The notes below the pieces were generated by a model that made no database searches, was not told where the DNA came from, and was given only the letters and a program-made list of their open reading frames with translations. A program made the translations under genes and the position numbers. From a virus (taxonomy: Duplodnaviria > Heunggongvirae > Uroviricota > Caudoviricetes), in IMG/VR virus record IMGVR_UViG_2802429242_000002, positions 1-5,028 of that record: a stretch of DNA of 5,028 bases; one strand, 5' to 3'. This document shows positions 1 to 5,028 of this stretch, in pieces; the stretch's first letter is position 1; each line of letters opens with the position of its first letter.

Positions 1-120
1 TCTGACATTCACGGTCAACCAGGCTAACACGTAGAACATGCCCTGCAGGCGTGGTGTACCACTGACCCGGACGAGGACAACGGAAAGTCTGATTGGTAAA
101 ACGTTTGAAAATATTCCGGA

Positions 121-1269
121 TCATTTGCGCCCCCTTACCTCTGAAGGGTTCAGCGACAAATTTATGAGGCAGGCCAGCGCCGAAGCATCATTAATATAGT
201 CATATAAGCTAACAGCCAGCGGAGATTCGGCTTTTGCCAACATAGGATAAAGCTGCTGCAGCCAGACCTGATGAATTGATGAAATGTAGGAACAGAGAAC
301 GCTGGCGTTATGTGCAACGTCGCTCGGTACAGCGGGCTTTGAAAGCTGTTTCTCCATCTGGTTAAAGGCATTGATGTATGCCTCTTTGAACTGGGCAGCA
401 CGTTTACCCGTGAAACCCATAGCAAGAAACGCAAAGCCGTCGCGGGTTATTTGATAGCAAGGTAGTTTGCGGCCTGTGCAATCGGTGTAATCACTCACCG
501 AAAAATTGCGGGCAGTGAATGATGCGGAACATTCAAGCGTGCGGATCTTTTTCAGTACATCGTCATGACGTTTGGAGAAGAAGTTGGCAACAGCCAGGGA
601 TGAAGTAACAGCCTGACCATCAACGATGGCAATTTCAGGTTGAGTGAGGGTTGGGATCGTAGCCATGATGACAGCCTCCGATAACAGTGAATTACCTTCA
701 CCACCGGAAACGCCAATTTCGCTGGTGGTGAACTGAACGGGGTTGGCGTAACCGGCGTTATCGGAAACCGGCGCACCTTTCGGTGCCCCCGTCCAGCCCA
801 CCATAATTTGGGTGTGCGCAGACGCAGACGATAAAAAAAACGCTGGCGCGTCATATATCGCCGATAACATTTCCAGGACGCCAATCCCGGCACCCGCTTT
901 ATAAGGTGCCTGAACAGTGTAACGTCCCGGAATGGCAGAATCAATGTGCTGGTGGTCCTTCACACTCAACAAAATCACGCCTGAATTTCCACAAAGGACT
1001 AAAGCACTCATGCGGGTAGTCTTTGCGAAGATAGATAACGCGCTGTGTTTCTGGCTCCCAACGAATAACATGAACATAAAGTCCTCTTCCGTCACGAAAC
1101 CAGCGGTTAAGTTCCTGCACAACTCGCCCCCCACAGTCAGGTAAAGTTCTCTGTGGTTACTTACAGGCAGGTGATTTGGTAATCTGCATTCATGCCGTAA
1201 CAACAGGTGTTCAGCCACGCGGACCACCAGCTGTTGCGACCAACGGTTATTTGCCGTTAAACTGTTCAT
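121..1269 (-). CDS. Rha-family phage regulatory protein (antirepressor-like), with a ~200-aa N-terminal region of unknown function
   Basis: 382-codon ORF. Residues ~205-305 (TLTQPEIAIVDGQAVTSSLAVANFFSKRHDDVLKKIRTLE ... YQITRDGFAFLAMGFTGKRAAQFKEAYINAFNQME) match the Rha-family signature as I recall it (KRHDnVLr ... TRDGF..LvMGFTG..A.qFK.aYI..FN.ME). Start ATG 1267-1269 overlaps the upstream gene's stop as ATGA (stop 1266-1268), with GGAG 10 nt upstream. The N-terminal half uses E. coli-like codons (CCG, GGT, ACC, GAA, AAC) and its other frames look like shadow ORFs. Alternative internal start ATG at 664-666 (M202) has a strong GGAGG SD 8 nt upstream and would give a 181-aa Rha-only protein. 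Confidence 0.6.
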   Translation of the reverse strand: MNSLTANNRWSQQLVVRVAEHLLLRHECRLPNHLPVSNHRELYLTVGGELCRNLTAGFVTEEDFMFMLFVGSQKHSALSIFAKTTRMSALVLCGNSGVILLSVKDHQHIDSAIPGRYTVQAPYKAGAGIGVLEMLSAIYDAPAFFLSSASAHTQIMVGWTGAPKGAPVSDNAGYANPVQFTTSEIGVSGGEGNSLLSEAVIMATIPTLTQPEIAIVDGQAVTSSLAVANFFSKRHDDVLKKIRTLECSASFTARNFSVSDYTDCTGRKLPCYQITRDGFAFLAMGFTGKRAAQFKEAYINAFNQMEKQLSKPAVPSDVAHNASVLCSYISSIHQVWLQQLYPMLAKAESPLAVSLYDYINDASALACLINLSLNPSEVRGRK

Positions 1270-2168: not shown

Positions 2169-2197
2169 ATAATGCTACTTAAAATAGCAAAATGCAA
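2169..2197 (-). promoter_or_regulatory. PR-like promoter for the Cro-like operon (-35 TTGCAT, 17-bp spacer containing operator, -10 CATTAT)
   Basis: Minus-strand sequence TTGCATTTTGCTATTTTAAGTAGCATTAT. It matches the plus-strand element at 4129-4157 (TTGATTTTTGCTACTTTTGGTAGCAGAAT) at 22 of 29 positions with identical layout, supporting paired early promoters. Hexamers are moderate matches to sigma70 consensus. Confidence 0.45.
2173..2189. promoter_or_regulatory. Operator O_R1-like 17-mer TGCTACTTAAAATAGCA
   Basis: Inverted arms TGCTA/TAGCA. Shares the CTAC ... (G/A)TAG half-site pattern with sites at 2196-2212, 2241-2257, 4114-4130 and 4137-4153. Sits in the spacer of the PR-like promoter. 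Confidence 0.5.
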
Positions 2198-2212
2198 CTA
2201 CTTAAAATAGAA
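2196..2212. promoter_or_regulatory. Operator O_R2-like 17-mer AACTACTTAAAATAGAA
   Basis: Exact direct repeat of the 13-nt core CTACTTAAAATAG from O_R1, centre-to-centre spacing 23 bp, comparable to lambda operator spacing. Overlaps the -35 of the PR-like promoter. Confidence 0.45.
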
Positions 2213-2240
2213 ATGACTAGCGTATGTGATGTGAGTAATC

Positions 2241-2997: not shown

Positions 2998-3360
2998 ATG
3001 AAATCTGAACTATTTCATAGCGAAGCAAATTCAGAAATTATCACCGCAGATGAGTTTATTGATTTCATAAACTCTTTCAAAAAGCCTTTAATTTGCCAAA
3101 TTTGCGGAAATCAATCATGGAGTGTAGTCGGTACTCTAGAACTTGAAGTTGAAGACAATCAGCCAAAACATCACGTAATCGAAGTTCTCAGCTATGCCCA
3201 ATACAAACCTGAAACTGATAGCGCTATAAATTATCCTGGTGGTATGCCGCTGTTTCGAATCACCTGTGATCACTGTGCACATGTACTTCTTTTTTCTTAT
3301 AAAAAAGCTAGATCATTGATCCAAAAAAGAAAAAATGAAAAAGAAGAGGATGGGAAATGA
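2998..3360 (+). CDS. Hypothetical small zinc-ribbon protein (two CxxC pairs), cargo gene downstream of repressor
   Basis: 120 aa with Cys33/Cys36 (CQIC) and Cys90/Cys93 (CDHC). AAAGGA SD 8 nt upstream of ATG 2998. Lysine-rich acidic tail. Markedly AT-rich (about one third G+C by hand count of 3001-3060, against about half in 601-660). I recognise no family. Confidence 0.7.
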   Translation: MKSELFHSEANSEIITADEFIDFINSFKKPLICQICGNQSWSVVGTLELEVEDNQPKHHVIEVLSYAQYKPETDSAINYPGGMPLFRITCDHCAHVLLFSYKKARSLIQKRKNEKEEDGK

Positions 3361-3989
3361 CGCGACCTTATCTCAGAGCAGTACCAAACTGTGGATCTGG
3401 TATTGATAAGTGTGACCTTTACCCCAATGTTAAGAACAGGCTGCGCGTCGGTATAGAAGAAATGTATACTGATTTTATCGAATCCGCAGATGAAACTTAC
3501 AAAACTGATGGGGGAAATAAAATGTCATCAGTTAGTCGAGAAGAAATTCAAGCACTTTTAGCTGCCAATAAAGCAGAAATGGAGTCCATTGCATCCTCTA
3601 TTAGAGTTGAAATGGCTTTATCTCGCGAGAACACAAACGTTCAGCTAGCATCTCTAAATTCAGCCATCAATTCTATCTCTTCGAAAATCGAAGGCAAAAT
3701 GGACAGTGTTGACGGGGATGTGAAGGCCATCAATGGTAGATTCGAAGGTATACAAGGCCAAATTACTGGAATAAATACAGCCATTAGTGGTATTCAATCT
3801 GGAATTTCTACCAGACTTGCTATTTTTGGAGTTATCATTGCGGTCATAGTTGCATTACCTAGCATAATTTCTGCTTTTAAAGATACTTCGCCAGTAGTTC
3901 AACCAGTTACACAACAACCAAGTGTTAAACATCTCAACCAAGAACCAATTACTCCACAAGTATTACCTCCGCAGGGAAAAGCAAACTAA
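3357..3989 (+). CDS. Hypothetical coiled-coil protein with single C-terminal transmembrane helix and proline-rich tail
   Basis: ATG 3357 overlaps the upstream stop as ATGA, with GAGGA 6 nt upstream. Alternative start ATG 3522 (M56) has GGGGGA 6 nt upstream. Residues ~60-150 are heptad-like and Ser/Ile/Gly-rich; hydrophobic segment LAIFGVIIAVIVALPSIISAF (~154-174); tail rich in P, Q and V. Architecture resembles small phage membrane proteins such as XhlA-like or exclusion proteins, by resemblance only. Confidence 0.65.
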   Translation: MTRPYLRAVPNCGSGIDKCDLYPNVKNRLRVGIEEMYTDFIESADETYKTDGGNKMSSVSREEIQALLAANKAEMESIASSIRVEMALSRENTNVQLASLNSAINSISSKIEGKMDSVDGDVKAINGRFEGIQGQITGINTAISGIQSGISTRLAIFGVIIAVIVALPSIISAFKDTSPVVQPVTQQPSVKHLNQEPITPQVLPPQGKAN

Positions 3990-4012
3990 ACCGGCTTTAT
4001 GCCGGTTTTTTT
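3989..4012 (+). terminator. Rho-independent terminator after the cargo cassette
   Basis: AACCGGC-TTTAT-GCCGGTT hairpin immediately after the TAA stop (3987-3989), followed by a run of seven T (4006-4012). Confidence 0.8.
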
Positions 4013-4113: not shown

Positions 4114-4130
4114 ATCTACTTTTAGTTGTT
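4114..4130. promoter_or_regulatory. Operator O_L2-like 17-mer ATCTACTTTTAGTTGTT (weaker half-site)
   Basis: CTAC half-site at the conserved position, second half GTTG instead of GTAG. Centre lies 23 bp from O_L1, the same spacing as O_R1 to O_R2. Overlaps the -35 of the PL-like promoter. Confidence 0.35.
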
Positions 4131-4157
4131 GATTTTTGCTACTTTTGGTAGCAGAAT
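4129..4157 (+). promoter_or_regulatory. PL-like early promoter (-35 TTGATT, 17-bp spacer containing operator, -10 CAGAAT)
   Basis: Matches the PR-like element at 2169-2197 at 22 of 29 positions in the same promoter orientation. Located downstream of the repressor cassette terminator and upstream of plus-strand small ORFs, as for lambda PL/OL. Confidence 0.45.
4137..4153. promoter_or_regulatory. Operator O_L1-like 17-mer TGCTACTTTTGGTAGCA
   Basis: 6-bp perfect inverted arms TGCTAC/GTAGCA. Same family as the O_R sites. Lies in the spacer and -10 of the PL-like promoter. Confidence 0.5.
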
Positions 4158-4361
4158 TGTTTTAACAACAACGAACAGGCAGGACGCCCACGAAGTAGCC
4201 GCCTGGGGCATATGAAGTCCAGGATGATTCGTTGAGTCATGTTGTGCCACTAGGCACTCATGTTAAAGCAGGTGTATGAAATGAAAGTCCAGATTTTAAA
4301 CAATAACTGTGAAGTCGTTTAGGCGTAAAACATGACCGCGCGTAGACCAAGGGAGGAAAAA

Positions 4362-4538
4362 GTGGGAATAGTTAGAAATCAAGCAGATATATTGAAAATC
4401 AGCTCTGAATTGCTTGGAGTTTTGAAAAGTGAGCTCACCGCACATGGCATCGAGCCCACTGACGAAAATTTAAGTTGGGTTTTGTCGATTATTCAACAAT
4501 CACTCAAGCCCAGCCTCAGCAAACTTTTTATCGAGTAG
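4362..4538 (+). CDS. Hypothetical small protein, first ORF of the putative PL-like transcript
   Basis: Strong SD AAGGGAGG with a 5-nt spacer to GTG 4362 (58 codons). The track ORF starts at ATG 4332 (68 aa) with only a weak AGG upstream. I see no arginine-rich N-type motif and recognise no family. Confidence 0.4.
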   Translation: MGIVRNQADILKISSELLGVLKSELTAHGIEPTDENLSWVLSIIQQSLKPSLSKLFIE

Positions 4539-4691
4539 TGCTTCGAACTTATCGTAAAGCTTGCTTATGTCGTCTATCGGGTTTTCTGACGTACTGTAAT
4601 TTTTATCTGATGTCATGGCAGCAGTCTGATATGCAGTGTGAGTCTTAACCGATAGTTGGAATAAATAAAGAATTTTTTCTTCTTTGGTCAT
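4500..4691 (-). CDS. Hypothetical small protein (63 aa), convergent with the 4362..4538 ORF
   Basis: ATG at 4689-4691 with AAGGA 8 nt upstream; the track ORF extends to 4733. Sequence MTKEEKILYLFQLSVKTHTAYQ...KFAEAGLE. Overlaps the 3' end of the plus-strand ORF by 39 nt, so one of the two may be spurious. Confidence 0.4.
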   Translation of the reverse strand: MTKEEKILYLFQLSVKTHTAYQTAAMTSDKNYSTSENPIDDISKLYDKFEALLDKKFAEAGLE

Positions 4692-4930
4692 GACTATTTC
4701 CTTCTTGGCTATATGAAAACACCAAGATACCACCGAGCCTGAAGTGGTGAAAAGACAGGCACATAACAGCTAAGTATTTTCAACCAGAGAGAATCCTTAG
4801 CGTTGTGGTGAATGCGCAGGCTGATGCGCGAAAGACATTGCAGCTATTGCGGAAAAGAGCTGTTCGGCGGGGCAATTAAACGCCCGTGAGAGTCTGAAAT
4901 AACCGCAAGCCGGAGATCAGCACCGGTCAC

Positions 4931-4995
4931 CACAACAGCCACTGCTTTGGCGGTACCAGTTTGTACACTTGCCTCCGGCTGGTACCGCTCTTTTT
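4931..4995 (+). ncRNA. Candidate DicF-like small RNA ending in an intrinsic terminator
   Basis: The stretch CTTTGGCGGTACCAGTTTGTAC resembles the DicF segment UUUGGCGGUAUCAGUUUUAC as I recall it from the E. coli Qin prophage, and a terminator hairpin follows as in DicF. Lies downstream of the repressor in the early-left direction, as dicF does relative to dicA. Based on memory, not a search; 5' boundary is approximate. Confidence 0.3.
4949..4995 (+). terminator. Rho-independent terminator (10-bp perfect stem GCGGTACCAG / CTGGTACCGC, then TCTTTTT)
   Basis: Read directly: arms at 4950-4959 and 4979-4988, 19-nt loop, T-run 4991-4995. Confidence 0.7.
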
Positions 4996-5028
4996 ACAAA
5001 ACAGAGAAGAGCATCACCGGACGACGGG

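What the first reader, a model, noticed from the sequence alone, without database searches (positions are those of the whole stretch)
4931..4995. Candidate DicF-like sRNA with a perfect 10-bp terminator stem
The sequence resembles the core of E. coli DicF, a Qin-prophage sRNA that represses ftsZ and other host mRNAs, and it sits in the analogous early-left position relative to the repressor. If genuine, this prophage carries a host-targeting sRNA, and a dicB-like inhibitor gene may lie just beyond the window end. Upstream, at 4812..4889, is a 25-codon ORF with a CxxC motif (MRRLMRERHCSYCGKELFGGAIKRP) that may be part of the same processed transcript.
Basis: partly seen in the sequence, partly recalled or inferred. 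Interest (0 to 1): 0.55.

Follow-up and report, generated by a model that had tools for sequence, protein, structure and literature searches.

The report
Terminator hairpin of prophage sRNA-17
The hairpin is real and is the transcription-terminator end of a small prophage RNA already published as sRNA-17; it is only a distant cousin of DicF, and no dicB gene follows it.

Summary
The perfect 10-bp stem (4950-4959/4979-4988) with its U-tract (4991-4995) is real and rare by chance (3 of 300 shuffles). Its stem covaries in 18 orthologous copies from several enterobacterial genera.

It is not a new DicF gene. Published RACE primers and the Northern probe for the 193-nt sRNA-17 of E. coli K1 (Sun et al. 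2020) map with 0-1 mismatch to the + strand at 4801-4994. The hairpin is therefore that RNA's intrinsic terminator. The 25-codon ORF lies inside the RNA and is not conserved.

The element lies about 800 nt downstream of OL/PL, in the early-left leader of an SfV/mEp460-type lambdoid prophage. The next gene is yfdP, which is unrelated to DicB.

The DicF resemblance is genuine but remote. Rfam DicF gives no hit here, whereas K-12 dicF scores 76.7 bits. Orthologous hairpins elsewhere score 20-28 bits. A model built from this hairpin family finds dicF as its best outside hit (E=0.04).

A sister version in the same slot scores 45 bits against Rfam STnc100.

The most likely function is a terminator that gates the yfdP operon and releases a stable RNA. 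Any trans-acting role is unproven.

The parts
4115..4160 (+). OL operators (CTACTTnnnnTAG-type repeats) and the probable PL promoter of the early-left operon, firing rightward on the + strand
   Evidence: A 39-nt inverted repeat and direct repeats are shared with the OR region at 2173-2213, between the cro-like and cI-like genes. The sequence ttgttgatttttgctacttttggtagcagaat contains -35-like and -10-like hexamers. The promoter itself is inferred, not mapped.
4801..4994 (+). sRNA-17-type non-coding RNA (the 193-nt RNA of Sun et al. 2020); the finding is its 3' end
   Evidence: The published sense full-length primer maps at 4801-4833 with 0 mismatches. The antisense full-length primer maps at 4963-4994 with 1 mismatch (C4973). 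The three 5'RACE primers and the 50-nt Northern probe are exact reverse complements of the + strand, and the two 3'RACE primers are exact sense matches. The full length is found in 586 of 5426 complete E. coli genomes, and RefSeq annotates none of the listed copies.
4802..4811 (+). 5' strand of the closing helix (GUUGUGGUGA) of the RNA body; the RACE 5' end sits at its base
   Evidence: It is complementary to 4927-4936 (UCACCACAAC) and paired in the MFE fold. Compensatory variants are seen elsewhere: GUUGUGAUGA/UCAUCACAAC in P1-like plasmids and UGUGGCG/CGCCGCA as the acceptor stem of a tRNA-Ile in Phytobacter.
4812..4889 (+). 25-codon ORF (MRRLMRERHCSYCGKELFGGAIKRP), judged non-coding
   Evidence: The ORF exists. 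Its first codons are part of the conserved hairpin GCGCA-GGCUGA-UGCGC (4814-4829). There is no Pfam hit. The peptide is not conserved in the other variants of this slot, and the open frames upstream of yfdP differ between loci.
4909..4926 (+). Inner hairpin GCCGG-AGAUCAGCA-CCGG just before the 3' strand of the closing helix
   Evidence: Present in the MFE fold. The equivalent hairpin in the SfV type is CCGGG-AGGCA-CCCGG and in Qin CCUGG-AGGCA-CCAGG, which shows compensatory change.
4927..4936 (+). 3' strand of the closing helix (UCACCACAAC)
   Evidence: See 4802-4811.
4937..4949 (+). Single-stranded linker (AGCCACUGCUUUG) 5' of the terminator, occupying the position of DicF's 5' seed region
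   Evidence: Largely unpaired in the folds. It differs from DicF (UUUCUGGUGACGUUU) and from the commoner GCUGUGUGUAGUCUU version found in other loci.
4950..4995 (+). Rho-independent terminator: 10-bp stem (4950-4959/4979-4988), 19-nt loop, UCUUUUU tail
   Evidence: The hairpin folds at -21.2 kcal/mol. The published full-length antisense primer, designed from the RACE result, ends in the U-tract at 4994. Across 18 orthologues, 88% of cells are paired against 32-57% when the partners are slid, 6 of 10 pairs show double changes, and 0 of 500 shuffles reach the covariation score. CM R1 scores 60.1 bits here.
4990..5028 (+). 5' strand of a long closing helix of the downstream yfdP leader RNA (a three-way junction); the rest lies beyond the window
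   Evidence: In L001 the full leader folds with z=-7.4. In the alignment of 15 loci, 12 of 39 pairs have compensatory changes, and the terminator U-tract is part of the helix. It has no Rfam hit.

Best explanation
The hairpin is the Rho-independent terminator that forms the 3' end of a roughly 193-nt structured, non-coding RNA (window 4801-4994, + strand), already described as sRNA-17 in an mEp460-like prophage of E. coli K1.

The RNA is made from the early-left (PL) side of an SfV/mEp460/CPS-53-type lambdoid prophage. It has three parts: a multi-branched body closed by the helix GUUGUGGUGA/UCACCACAAC, a short linker, and the terminator.

In the lysogen the terminator stops transcription about 140 nt before yfdP. 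This keeps the yfdP-yfdQ-yfdR...xis/int operon silent and releases a stable RNA with a 3' hairpin.

Shown or supported by data: the identity with sRNA-17, its strand and ends, the covarying hairpin, and the genomic position.

Inferred:
- The terminator gates the downstream operon.
- The 5' end arises by processing of a longer transcript at the base of the closing helix.
- Read-through transcripts are processed at the long helix that absorbs the U-tract, as RNase III does just downstream of DicF.

In evolutionary terms the hairpin belongs to a family of early-left terminator hairpins built on GGCGGUAYCAG, and the DicF hairpin is a diverged member of that family.
For: - Primer and probe mapping places sRNA-17 at 4801-4994 on the + strand.
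- mEp460, which Sun et al. list among the sRNA-17 homologues and use to name the RS218 prophage, matches 4799-5028 at 99.6%.
- The window has one perfect hairpin plus T-run, seen in 3 of 300 shuffles.
- The stem covaries across genera.
- CM R1 finds one copy per locus and gives no false hits in 73 kb.
- The position is downstream of OL/PL and upstream of yfdP in 25 loci, with the U-tract ending 97-162 nt before the ATG in 24 of them (27 nt in L019).
- In RS218, wild-type yfdP read counts are about 0.5 although sRNA-17 is visible on Northern blots.
- The authors' qPCR amplicon starts about 250 nt upstream of the RACE 5' end, which is consistent with a longer precursor.
- DicF kinship: Rfam DicF gives sub-threshold, full-length hits exactly on the orthologous hairpins of L017 (28.4 bits), L014 and L018 (22.7 bits each) and L006 (19.8 bits).
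- Reciprocal test: R1 finds dicF as its best outside hit, 17.6 bits, E=0.039.
- A sister version of the whole unit in the same slot scores 45.1 bits against STnc100.
Against: - No transcript data exist for this particular prophage. The promoter fragment used by Sun et al. is absent from the window, because the mosaic boundary lies near 4797.
- The loop is long for a canonical terminator (19 nt) and the U-tract has only five U.
- The fold of 4900-5000 alone is not exceptional (z=-1.6).
- In the published deletion the hairpin was left intact, yet yfdP rose 96-fold. That result does not show gating by the terminator. It may reflect read-through from the resistance cassette, or a trans effect.
- How the terminator is overcome during lytic growth is unknown. 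No N-like gene or put-like RNA was identified.
Confidence: 0.75

Rival explanations
1. The element is a functional DicF orthologue: a 55-65-nt Hfq-dependent sRNA processed from the early-left transcript that represses ftsZ (and xylR/pykA) by base pairing.
For: It shares the GGCGGUAYCAGUUU core and a terminator architecture with DicF. It sits in the equivalent operon position. A long helix follows the terminator, as in Qin, where RNase III makes the 72-nt DicF. A GC|UUU RNase E-like motif lies in the linker (seen in the sequence).
Against: Rfam DicF gives no hit at E<=10, against 76.7 bits for K-12 dicF. DicF's 5' seed for xylR/pykA and its 3'/loop region for ftsZ (PMC5069750) are replaced by unrelated sequence. 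The CCUCC in the loop depends on a window-specific base (C4973); the RS218, L001 and mEp460 copies have U there. The mapped RNA is 193 nt. There is no dicB. The duplex prediction with ftsZ was uninformative.
Confidence: 0.07
2. The RNA is primarily a trans-acting regulator of host genes (sRNA-17 as proposed by Sun et al.), and the hairpin is merely its terminator and Hfq-binding module. Control of yfdP is incidental.
For: Sun et al. report a Northern-detected RNA that is growth-phase and ArcA dependent. They also report altered expression of about 48 genes and altered blood survival and invasion in the deletion mutant. Related prophage RNAs of the same architecture (the PasD/STnc100 group) take part in RIL-seq interactions in EPEC (preprint 10.64898/2026.05.13.724894). 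Early-terminated phage leaders can act as sRNAs, as StxS does (PMC7547250).
Against: No target pairing has been shown. The mutant keeps a resistance cassette 5' of yfdP, and the two strongest effects are on the adjacent genes yfdP and yfdR, as expected for a cis effect. The linker and loop that would serve as seeds differ between variants of the slot. Hfq binding is untested.
Confidence: 0.3
3. The unit is a decayed tRNA-operon remnant. The RNA body occupies a former tRNA slot, is cut out by tRNA-processing enzymes such as RNase P, and the hairpin is the old operon terminator with no regulatory role of its own.
For: Phytobacter prophages have a tRNA-Ile(AAT) exactly in this slot (ARAGORN; Rfam tRNA 52.8 bits). 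Its acceptor stem is homologous to the closing helix, and the same DicF-like terminator and yfdP leader follow. P1-like plasmids carry the same body right after tRNA-Asn and tRNA-Thr. The RACE 5' end lies at the base of the closing helix.
Against: Neither ARAGORN nor Rfam tRNA recognises the window sequence. The hairpin, its distance to yfdP and the downstream leader are conserved with covariation across genera, which argues for selection on the hairpin itself. RNase P cleavage is untested.
Confidence: 0.15
4. The region codes for protein: either the 25-aa CxxC peptide on the + strand, or a small - strand ORF such as mEp460 gp36.
For: The ORFs exist. mEp460 gp36 is annotated on the - strand across the hairpin.
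Against: There are no Pfam hits. The peptide and its frame are not conserved among variants. RefSeq annotates nothing here in L001 or in the genomes listed. Conservation follows RNA pairing, not codons.
Confidence: 0.03

Closest known systems
sRNA-17 of E. coli K1 RS218 (Sun et al. 2020, Front Microbiol 11:574833; PMC7719688)
   Same: Same RNA. All published primers and the probe lying within the RNA map to the + strand at 4801-4994 with 0-1 mismatch. The prophage type (mEp460-like) is the same, and yfdP and yfdR lie downstream.
   Different: One loop base differs (C4973 versus T). The sequence upstream of about 4797, which the authors called the sRNA-17 promoter, is different in this prophage.
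DicF (Rfam RF00039), Qin prophage of E. coli K-12
   Same: Both share the GGCGGUAYCAGUUU 5' arm and core, a terminator hairpin with a U-tract, a location in the early-left operon downstream of the repressor, and a long helix immediately after the terminator. Homology signals are weak but reciprocal. The body of the SfV-type version of this RNA is also homologous to the dicF-dicB spacer (31 of 35 bases, E=7e-7).
   Different: There is no Rfam hit here. The 5' seed, loop and 3' arm differ. The RNA is 193 nt rather than 53/72 nt. The order of modules is swapped: body then hairpin here, hairpin then body in Qin. The next gene is yfdP, not dicB.
STnc100 (Rfam RF02076) and the related PasD sRNAs of lambdoid prophages
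   Same: The architecture is the same: a closing helix around branched hairpins, then a linker, then a terminator. The SfV-type RNA in the very same slot, with identical flanks, scores 45.1 bits full length against a gathering score of 47.
   Different: The window version has a different interior and gives no STnc100 hit at E<=10. According to the literature read here, STnc100/PasD copies mostly lie in late regions, near Q, stx or the lysis genes.
StxS and other leader RNAs released by early termination in lambdoid phages (PMC7547250)
   Same: A phage promoter-proximal terminator that both gates downstream genes and leaves a short, stable RNA.
   Different: StxS comes from PR' and its terminator is overcome by Q. 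Here the operon is the early-left one, and the antitermination route is unknown.

Membership tests
DicF (RF00039) | Covariance-model score at or above the Rfam gathering score (48 bits) | tested here: not met
   No DicF hit at E<=10 in the whole window or in 249-251-nt slices. The K-12 dicF control scores 76.7 bits. Orthologous hairpins in other loci score 19.8-28.4 bits.
DicF (RF00039) | Terminator hairpin on a GGCGGUAUCAG 5' arm followed by a U-tract | tested here: met
   GGCGGUACCAG at 4949-4959, a perfect stem, and U5.
DicF (RF00039) | 5' single-stranded seed (UUUCUGGUGAC...) that pairs with xylR/pykA, and a 3'/loop region that pairs with the ftsZ RBS | tested here: not met
   The global alignment shows the 5' region and loop replaced; only CAGUUU is shared. 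The roles of these regions are taken from PMC5069750.
DicF (RF00039) | Encoded in the dicB operon, followed by dicB | tested here: not met
   The genes downstream are yfdP, yfdQ and yfdR. YfdP against DicB gives no BLASTP alignment.
DicF (RF00039) | Mature size of 53 nt (72 nt), with the 5' end made by RNase E | not testable with these tools
   The literature reports a 193-nt species. A shorter processed form has not been sought.
sRNA-17 (Sun et al. 2020) | Sequence, strand and RACE-defined ends | tested here: met
   Eight oligonucleotides lying within the RNA (two full-length primers, three 5'RACE, two 3'RACE, the Northern probe) map with 0-1 mismatch in the expected orientation, at 4801-4994 on the + strand. 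The two deletion homology arms map consistently, allowing for the RS218-specific upstream bases in one of them.
sRNA-17 (Sun et al. 2020) | mEp460-like prophage context with yfdP/yfdR downstream | tested here: met
   mEp460 matches 4799-5028 at 99.6%. L001 shows yfdP, yfdQ and yfdR downstream.
sRNA-17 (Sun et al. 2020) | ArcA-bound promoter fragment immediately upstream | tested here: not met
   The promoter-fragment primers do not map in the window (9-10 mismatches). The window diverges from mEp460 upstream of about 4797.
STnc100 (RF02076) | Covariance-model score at or above the gathering score (47 bits) | tested here: not met
   No hit for the window. The sister variant L006 scores 45.1 bits.
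STnc100 (RF02076) | Architecture: closing helix, inner hairpins, linker, terminator | tested here: met
   The MFE fold of 4801-4995 compared with the STnc100 consensus structure line. The flanking blocks are shared with L006.
Intrinsic (Rho-independent) terminator | G+C-rich stem directly followed by a U-tract, with RNA 3' ends in the tract | tested here: met
   The stem and U5 are in the sequence. The 3' end at 4994 comes from the published primer designed on the RACE result. Termination efficiency was not measured.

The most novel reading that the evidence does not exclude
DicF, sRNA-17 and STnc100/PasD are diverged members of one modular superfamily of lambdoid-phage leader RNAs. Each has a body derived from a tRNA slot and closed by an acceptor-like helix, a GGCGGUAYCAG-type terminator hairpin, and a long RNase III-type helix. 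These modules have been shuffled among early-left and late operons. In this reading the terminator and the undescribed ~125-nt three-way-junction leader that absorbs its U-tract form a cis switch controlling entry into the yfdP...xis/int operon in N-less lambdoid phages. The released RNA additionally acts in trans on the host.
Probability: 0.3. Interest if true: 0.6.

Novelty: already known. Interest (0 to 1): 0.38.

Why it matters
The element is common. The full RNA is present in 586 of 5426 complete E. coli genomes, part of it in 1590, and the surrounding leader in 2895. It also occurs in SfV, SfII, mEp460 and Stx2 phages, yet no Rfam hit covers this version and none of the RefSeq copies listed carries an annotation.

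Knowing that the published sRNA-17 ends at a terminator just upstream of yfdP changes how its deletion phenotype should be read. The strongest "targets", yfdP and yfdR, are the adjacent genes.

The weak but reciprocal link to DicF, and the link to STnc100, suggest where DicF came from. They also suggest that several separately named prophage sRNAs are versions of one modular leader.

Tried and rejected
- HK022 put-like antiterminator RNA: BLAST of the leader against the HK022 PL/PR region found nothing above chance.
- nutL (boxA/boxB) reading of the GUGCUCUUUCC-GUUGUGG motif: dropped. In P1-like plasmids and Phytobacter the "boxA" is the 3' strand of an upstream tRNA-like helix. It is absent from the window, and no N-like protein was found.
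- N-terminal extension of YfdP through the leader: the open frame seen in the SfV type is not conserved in other loci.
- ftsZ pairing by RNAduplex: uninformative, because even DicF is not significant with this crude method.
- A second body module upstream of dicF in Qin: the motif is similar, but the MFE fold does not support it.
- PasB identity: rejected, because PasB lies among structural genes.
- Full-text searches for the hairpin and motif sequences found no relevant paper.
- Faubladier & Bouche 1994 (dicF-like prophage sequences) could not be read.
- K-12 CPS-53 lacks the element.

Full report
**Observation**

The window reads GCGGTACCAG (4950-4959), a 19-nt loop, CTGGTACCGC (4979-4988), then TCTTTTT. 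It is the only perfect hairpin of at least 10 bp followed by a T-run on either strand. Such a site appeared in 3 of 300 dinucleotide shuffles of the window.

The resemblance to DicF is real. TTTGGCGGTACCAGTTT matches K-12 dicF at 16 of 17 positions. The local alignment scores 31 against 20.3 +/- 2.2 for shuffles, and 1 of 300 shuffles reaches it. BLAST of the leader against 5 kb of Qin places the hit exactly on dicF (E=0.004). The 25-codon ORF at 4812-4889 exists.

**Context**

The window is the immunity region of a lambdoid E. coli prophage:
- a Rha/Ash antirepressor ORF with C4 and isrK RNAs (721-909, - strand);
- a CII-like gene and a cro-like gene on the - strand;
- an S24/HTH repressor at 2192-2953 on the + strand;
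- two cargo ORFs of unknown function.

Operator repeats are shared between 2173-2213 (OR) and 4115-4157 (OL), so PL fires rightward from about 4160. The candidate lies about 800 nt downstream, on the repressor's strand.

Near-identical DNA (99.5%) in E. coli UPEC_U013 continues 105 nt past the window end into yfdP, then yfdQ and yfdR. The same leader precedes the yfdP homologues of mEp460 and SfV. K-12's CPS-53 has lost it. YfdP has no similarity to DicB, so there is no dicB.

**Identity**

A search for yfdP plus "small RNA" led to Sun et al. 2020 (PMC7719688). They mapped a 193-nt "sRNA-17" by 5'/3' RACE and Northern blot in an mEp460-like prophage of E. coli K1 RS218.

I mapped their oligonucleotides onto the window:
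- the sense full-length primer lies at 4801-4833 with 0 mismatches;
- the antisense full-length primer lies at 4963-4994 with 1 mismatch (C4973);
- the three 5'RACE primers and the 50-nt Northern probe are exact reverse complements of the + strand;
- the two 3'RACE primers are exact sense matches.

So sRNA-17 is window 4801-4994 on the + strand, and the hairpin in the finding is its terminator. The ORF lies inside the RNA.

The full RNA is present in 586 of 5426 complete E. coli genomes, and part of it in 1590. None of the copies listed carries an annotation.

**Is the hairpin under selection?**

I fetched 31 loci encoding YfdP relatives from Escherichia, Shigella, Mangrovibacter, Enterobacter, Atlantibacter, Leclercia, Superficieibacter, Kosakonia, Phytobacter, Scandinavium, Pseudocitrobacter and Providencia.

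Twenty-five loci (L001, mEp460, SfV and 22 of the fetched set) carry a hairpin plus U-tract upstream of the start codon, ending 97-162 nt before it in 24 of them (27 nt in L019). The arms differ (GGCGGUACCAG, GGCGGCGUC, AGCGGCACC, GGUGGCGACCUGA...) but remain complementary.

On an 18-sequence alignment:
- 88% of cells are paired, against 32-57% when the partners are slid;
- 6 of 10 pairs have changes on both sides;
- 0 of 500 shuffles reach the covariation score.

A covariance model of this family (R1) scores 60 bits on the window. It finds exactly one copy in L001, mEp460 and SfV, and nothing else at E<=1 in 73 kb.

**Relation to DicF**

Rfam's DicF model gives no hit on the window at E<=10, even on 250-nt slices. 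K-12 dicF scores 76.7 bits in an equal-sized search. The window copy is therefore not a member of RF00039.

The model does give full-length, sub-threshold hits exactly on the orthologous hairpins of other loci:
- Leclercia, 28.4 bits (E=0.04 in 63 kb);
- two other genera, 22.7 bits each;
- the SfV-type E. coli copy, 19.8 bits.

Conversely, R1 was built without DicF, yet it finds dicF as its best outside hit (17.6 bits, E=0.039 in 24 kb).

The neighbourhoods are related too. The first 35 nt of the SfV-type RNA body match the start of the dicF-dicB spacer at 31 of 35 positions (E=7e-7). The hairpin CACCGGGAGGCACCCGGCAC matches CACCUGGAGGCACCAGGCAC with a compensatory change. In Qin that body follows dicF, whereas here it precedes the hairpin.

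I conclude that the hairpin and DicF are remote relatives built from shared phage modules. DicF's functional parts are not conserved here. These are the 5' seed for xylR/pykA and the 3' region for ftsZ (PMC5069750).

**Relation to STnc100 and to tRNA**

The SfV-type RNA occupying the same slot has identical flanks and a different interior. It scores 45.1 bits, full length, against Rfam STnc100, whose gathering score is 47. The window type gives no hit.

STnc100 is a prophage sRNA recently linked to PasD (preprint 10.64898/2026.05.13.724894). Its function is unknown.

In Phytobacter prophages the slot holds a tRNA-Ile(AAT), recognised by ARAGORN and by Rfam tRNA at 52.8 bits. Its acceptor stem UGUGGCG/CGCCGCA aligns with the closing helix UGUGGUG/CACCACA of sRNA-17. 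The same terminator and yfdP leader follow it.

P1-like plasmids carry the sRNA-17 body directly after tRNA-Asn and tRNA-Thr, with the compensatory helix GUUGUGAUGA/UCAUCACAAC.

The RACE 5' end lies at the base of this helix. The authors' qPCR amplicon also begins about 250 nt further upstream. Processing of a longer transcript, possibly by a tRNA-type or double-strand-specific nuclease, is therefore plausible but untested.

**Downstream**

From the U-tract to the yfdP start lies a conserved RNA of about 125 nt. A helix of about 25 bp, which includes the terminator's U-tract, closes a three-way junction with an invariant GACGGGCUCAUAACCCAAUCC loop. The fold has z=-7.4, 12 of 39 pairs show compensatory changes, and there is no Rfam hit. 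Only its 5' strand (4990-5028) is in the window.

A comparable long helix follows dicF in Qin, where RNase III makes the 72-nt DicF.

**Coding potential**

The leader does not code for protein. The frame open upstream of the yfdP ATG changes from locus to locus. The 25-aa peptide is not conserved, and its first codons are a conserved hairpin. Pfam finds nothing.

**Mechanism**

The best-supported reading is a Rho-independent terminator in the early-left leader. In the lysogen it ends a structured RNA of about 193 nt and keeps yfdP...xis/int off. Wild-type yfdP read counts are about 0.5 in RS218.

The 96-fold rise of yfdP in the published mutant cannot be credited to loss of the terminator. The deletion (4827-4944) leaves the hairpin intact and inserts a resistance cassette. 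A cis or polar effect is the simplest explanation, and a trans effect is not excluded.

How lytic transcription passes the terminator is unknown. I found no put-like RNA or N-like gene.

**Verdict**

The feature is real and already described as sRNA-17. It is DicF-like only in remote ancestry and architecture. The added value lies in three points: placing it as a terminator upstream of yfdP, linking it to DicF, STnc100 and a tRNA slot, and pointing out the undescribed leader that follows it.

Noticed in passing
window 721-909 (- strand), with ORF 121-1269 (-): C4 antisense RNA (82.8 bits) and isrK (61.7 bits) lie upstream of and within an Ash/Rha-type antirepressor ORF. This is a P1/P7-type immI module sitting inside a lambdoid immunity region.
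   Followed up: no
window 4990-5028, continuing to L001 9391-9536: The stretch between the terminator U-tract and the yfdP start codon is a conserved RNA of about 125 nt. It is a three-way junction closed by a helix of about 25 bp that includes the U-tract. It has z=-7.4, 12 of 39 compensatory pairs, an invariant GACGGGCUCAUAACCCAAUCC loop and no Rfam hit. It may be an RNase III site or a cis-regulatory leader.
   Followed up: partly
window 4802-4936; L021 2723-2796; L039 3001-3137: The body of sRNA-17 sits where Phytobacter prophages have a tRNA-Ile(AAT), whose acceptor stem is homologous to the closing helix. The same body follows tRNA-Asn and tRNA-Thr in P1-like phage-plasmids of about 95 kb, with compensatory changes in the helix.
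   Followed up: partly
L006 2643-2865 (same slot as window 4780-4995): The SfV-type RNA in this slot scores 45.1 bits against Rfam STnc100 (gathering score 47), and its hairpin scores 19.8 bits against DicF. The window type, with identical flanks but a different interior, has no Rfam hit.
   Followed up: yes
L002 2946-3095 (Qin, between dicF and dicB): The dicF-dicB spacer is homologous to the body of the STnc100/sRNA-17-type RNAs. It is closed by a helix of about 21 bp that starts right after the dicF terminator, where the RNase III-made end of the 72-nt DicF would lie.
   Followed up: partly
window 2173-2213 and 4115-4157: Operator repeats (TGCTACTTnnnnTAGCA type) mark OR and OL. The terminator-like hit at 4134-4156 in the pattern scan is really an operator palindrome.
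   Followed up: partly
window 2998-3989 (+), terminator 3988-4012: Two cargo ORFs (120 aa and 210 aa) directly follow the repressor gene and have their own terminator. Neither passes any Pfam threshold. They occupy the position that rexAB-like exclusion genes hold in lambda.
   Followed up: no
window 4332-4538 (+) and 4500-4733 (-): Two small ORFs converge and overlap at their 3' ends between PL and the sRNA. The + strand ORF has an internal GTG at 4362 preceded by a strong GGGAGG Shine-Dalgarno sequence. RefSeq annotates only the - strand ORF. Neither has a Pfam hit.
   Followed up: no
L003 4119-4262 (mEp460 gp36, - strand); window equivalent about 4917-5060: A hypothetical protein is annotated on the - strand across the terminator hairpin and the leader helix. 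It is probably a spurious call over structured RNA.
   Followed up: no
window 4973: The window has C where the RS218, L001 and mEp460 copies have T. This creates a CCUCC (anti-Shine-Dalgarno-like) motif in the terminator loop that is specific to this copy.
   Followed up: partly
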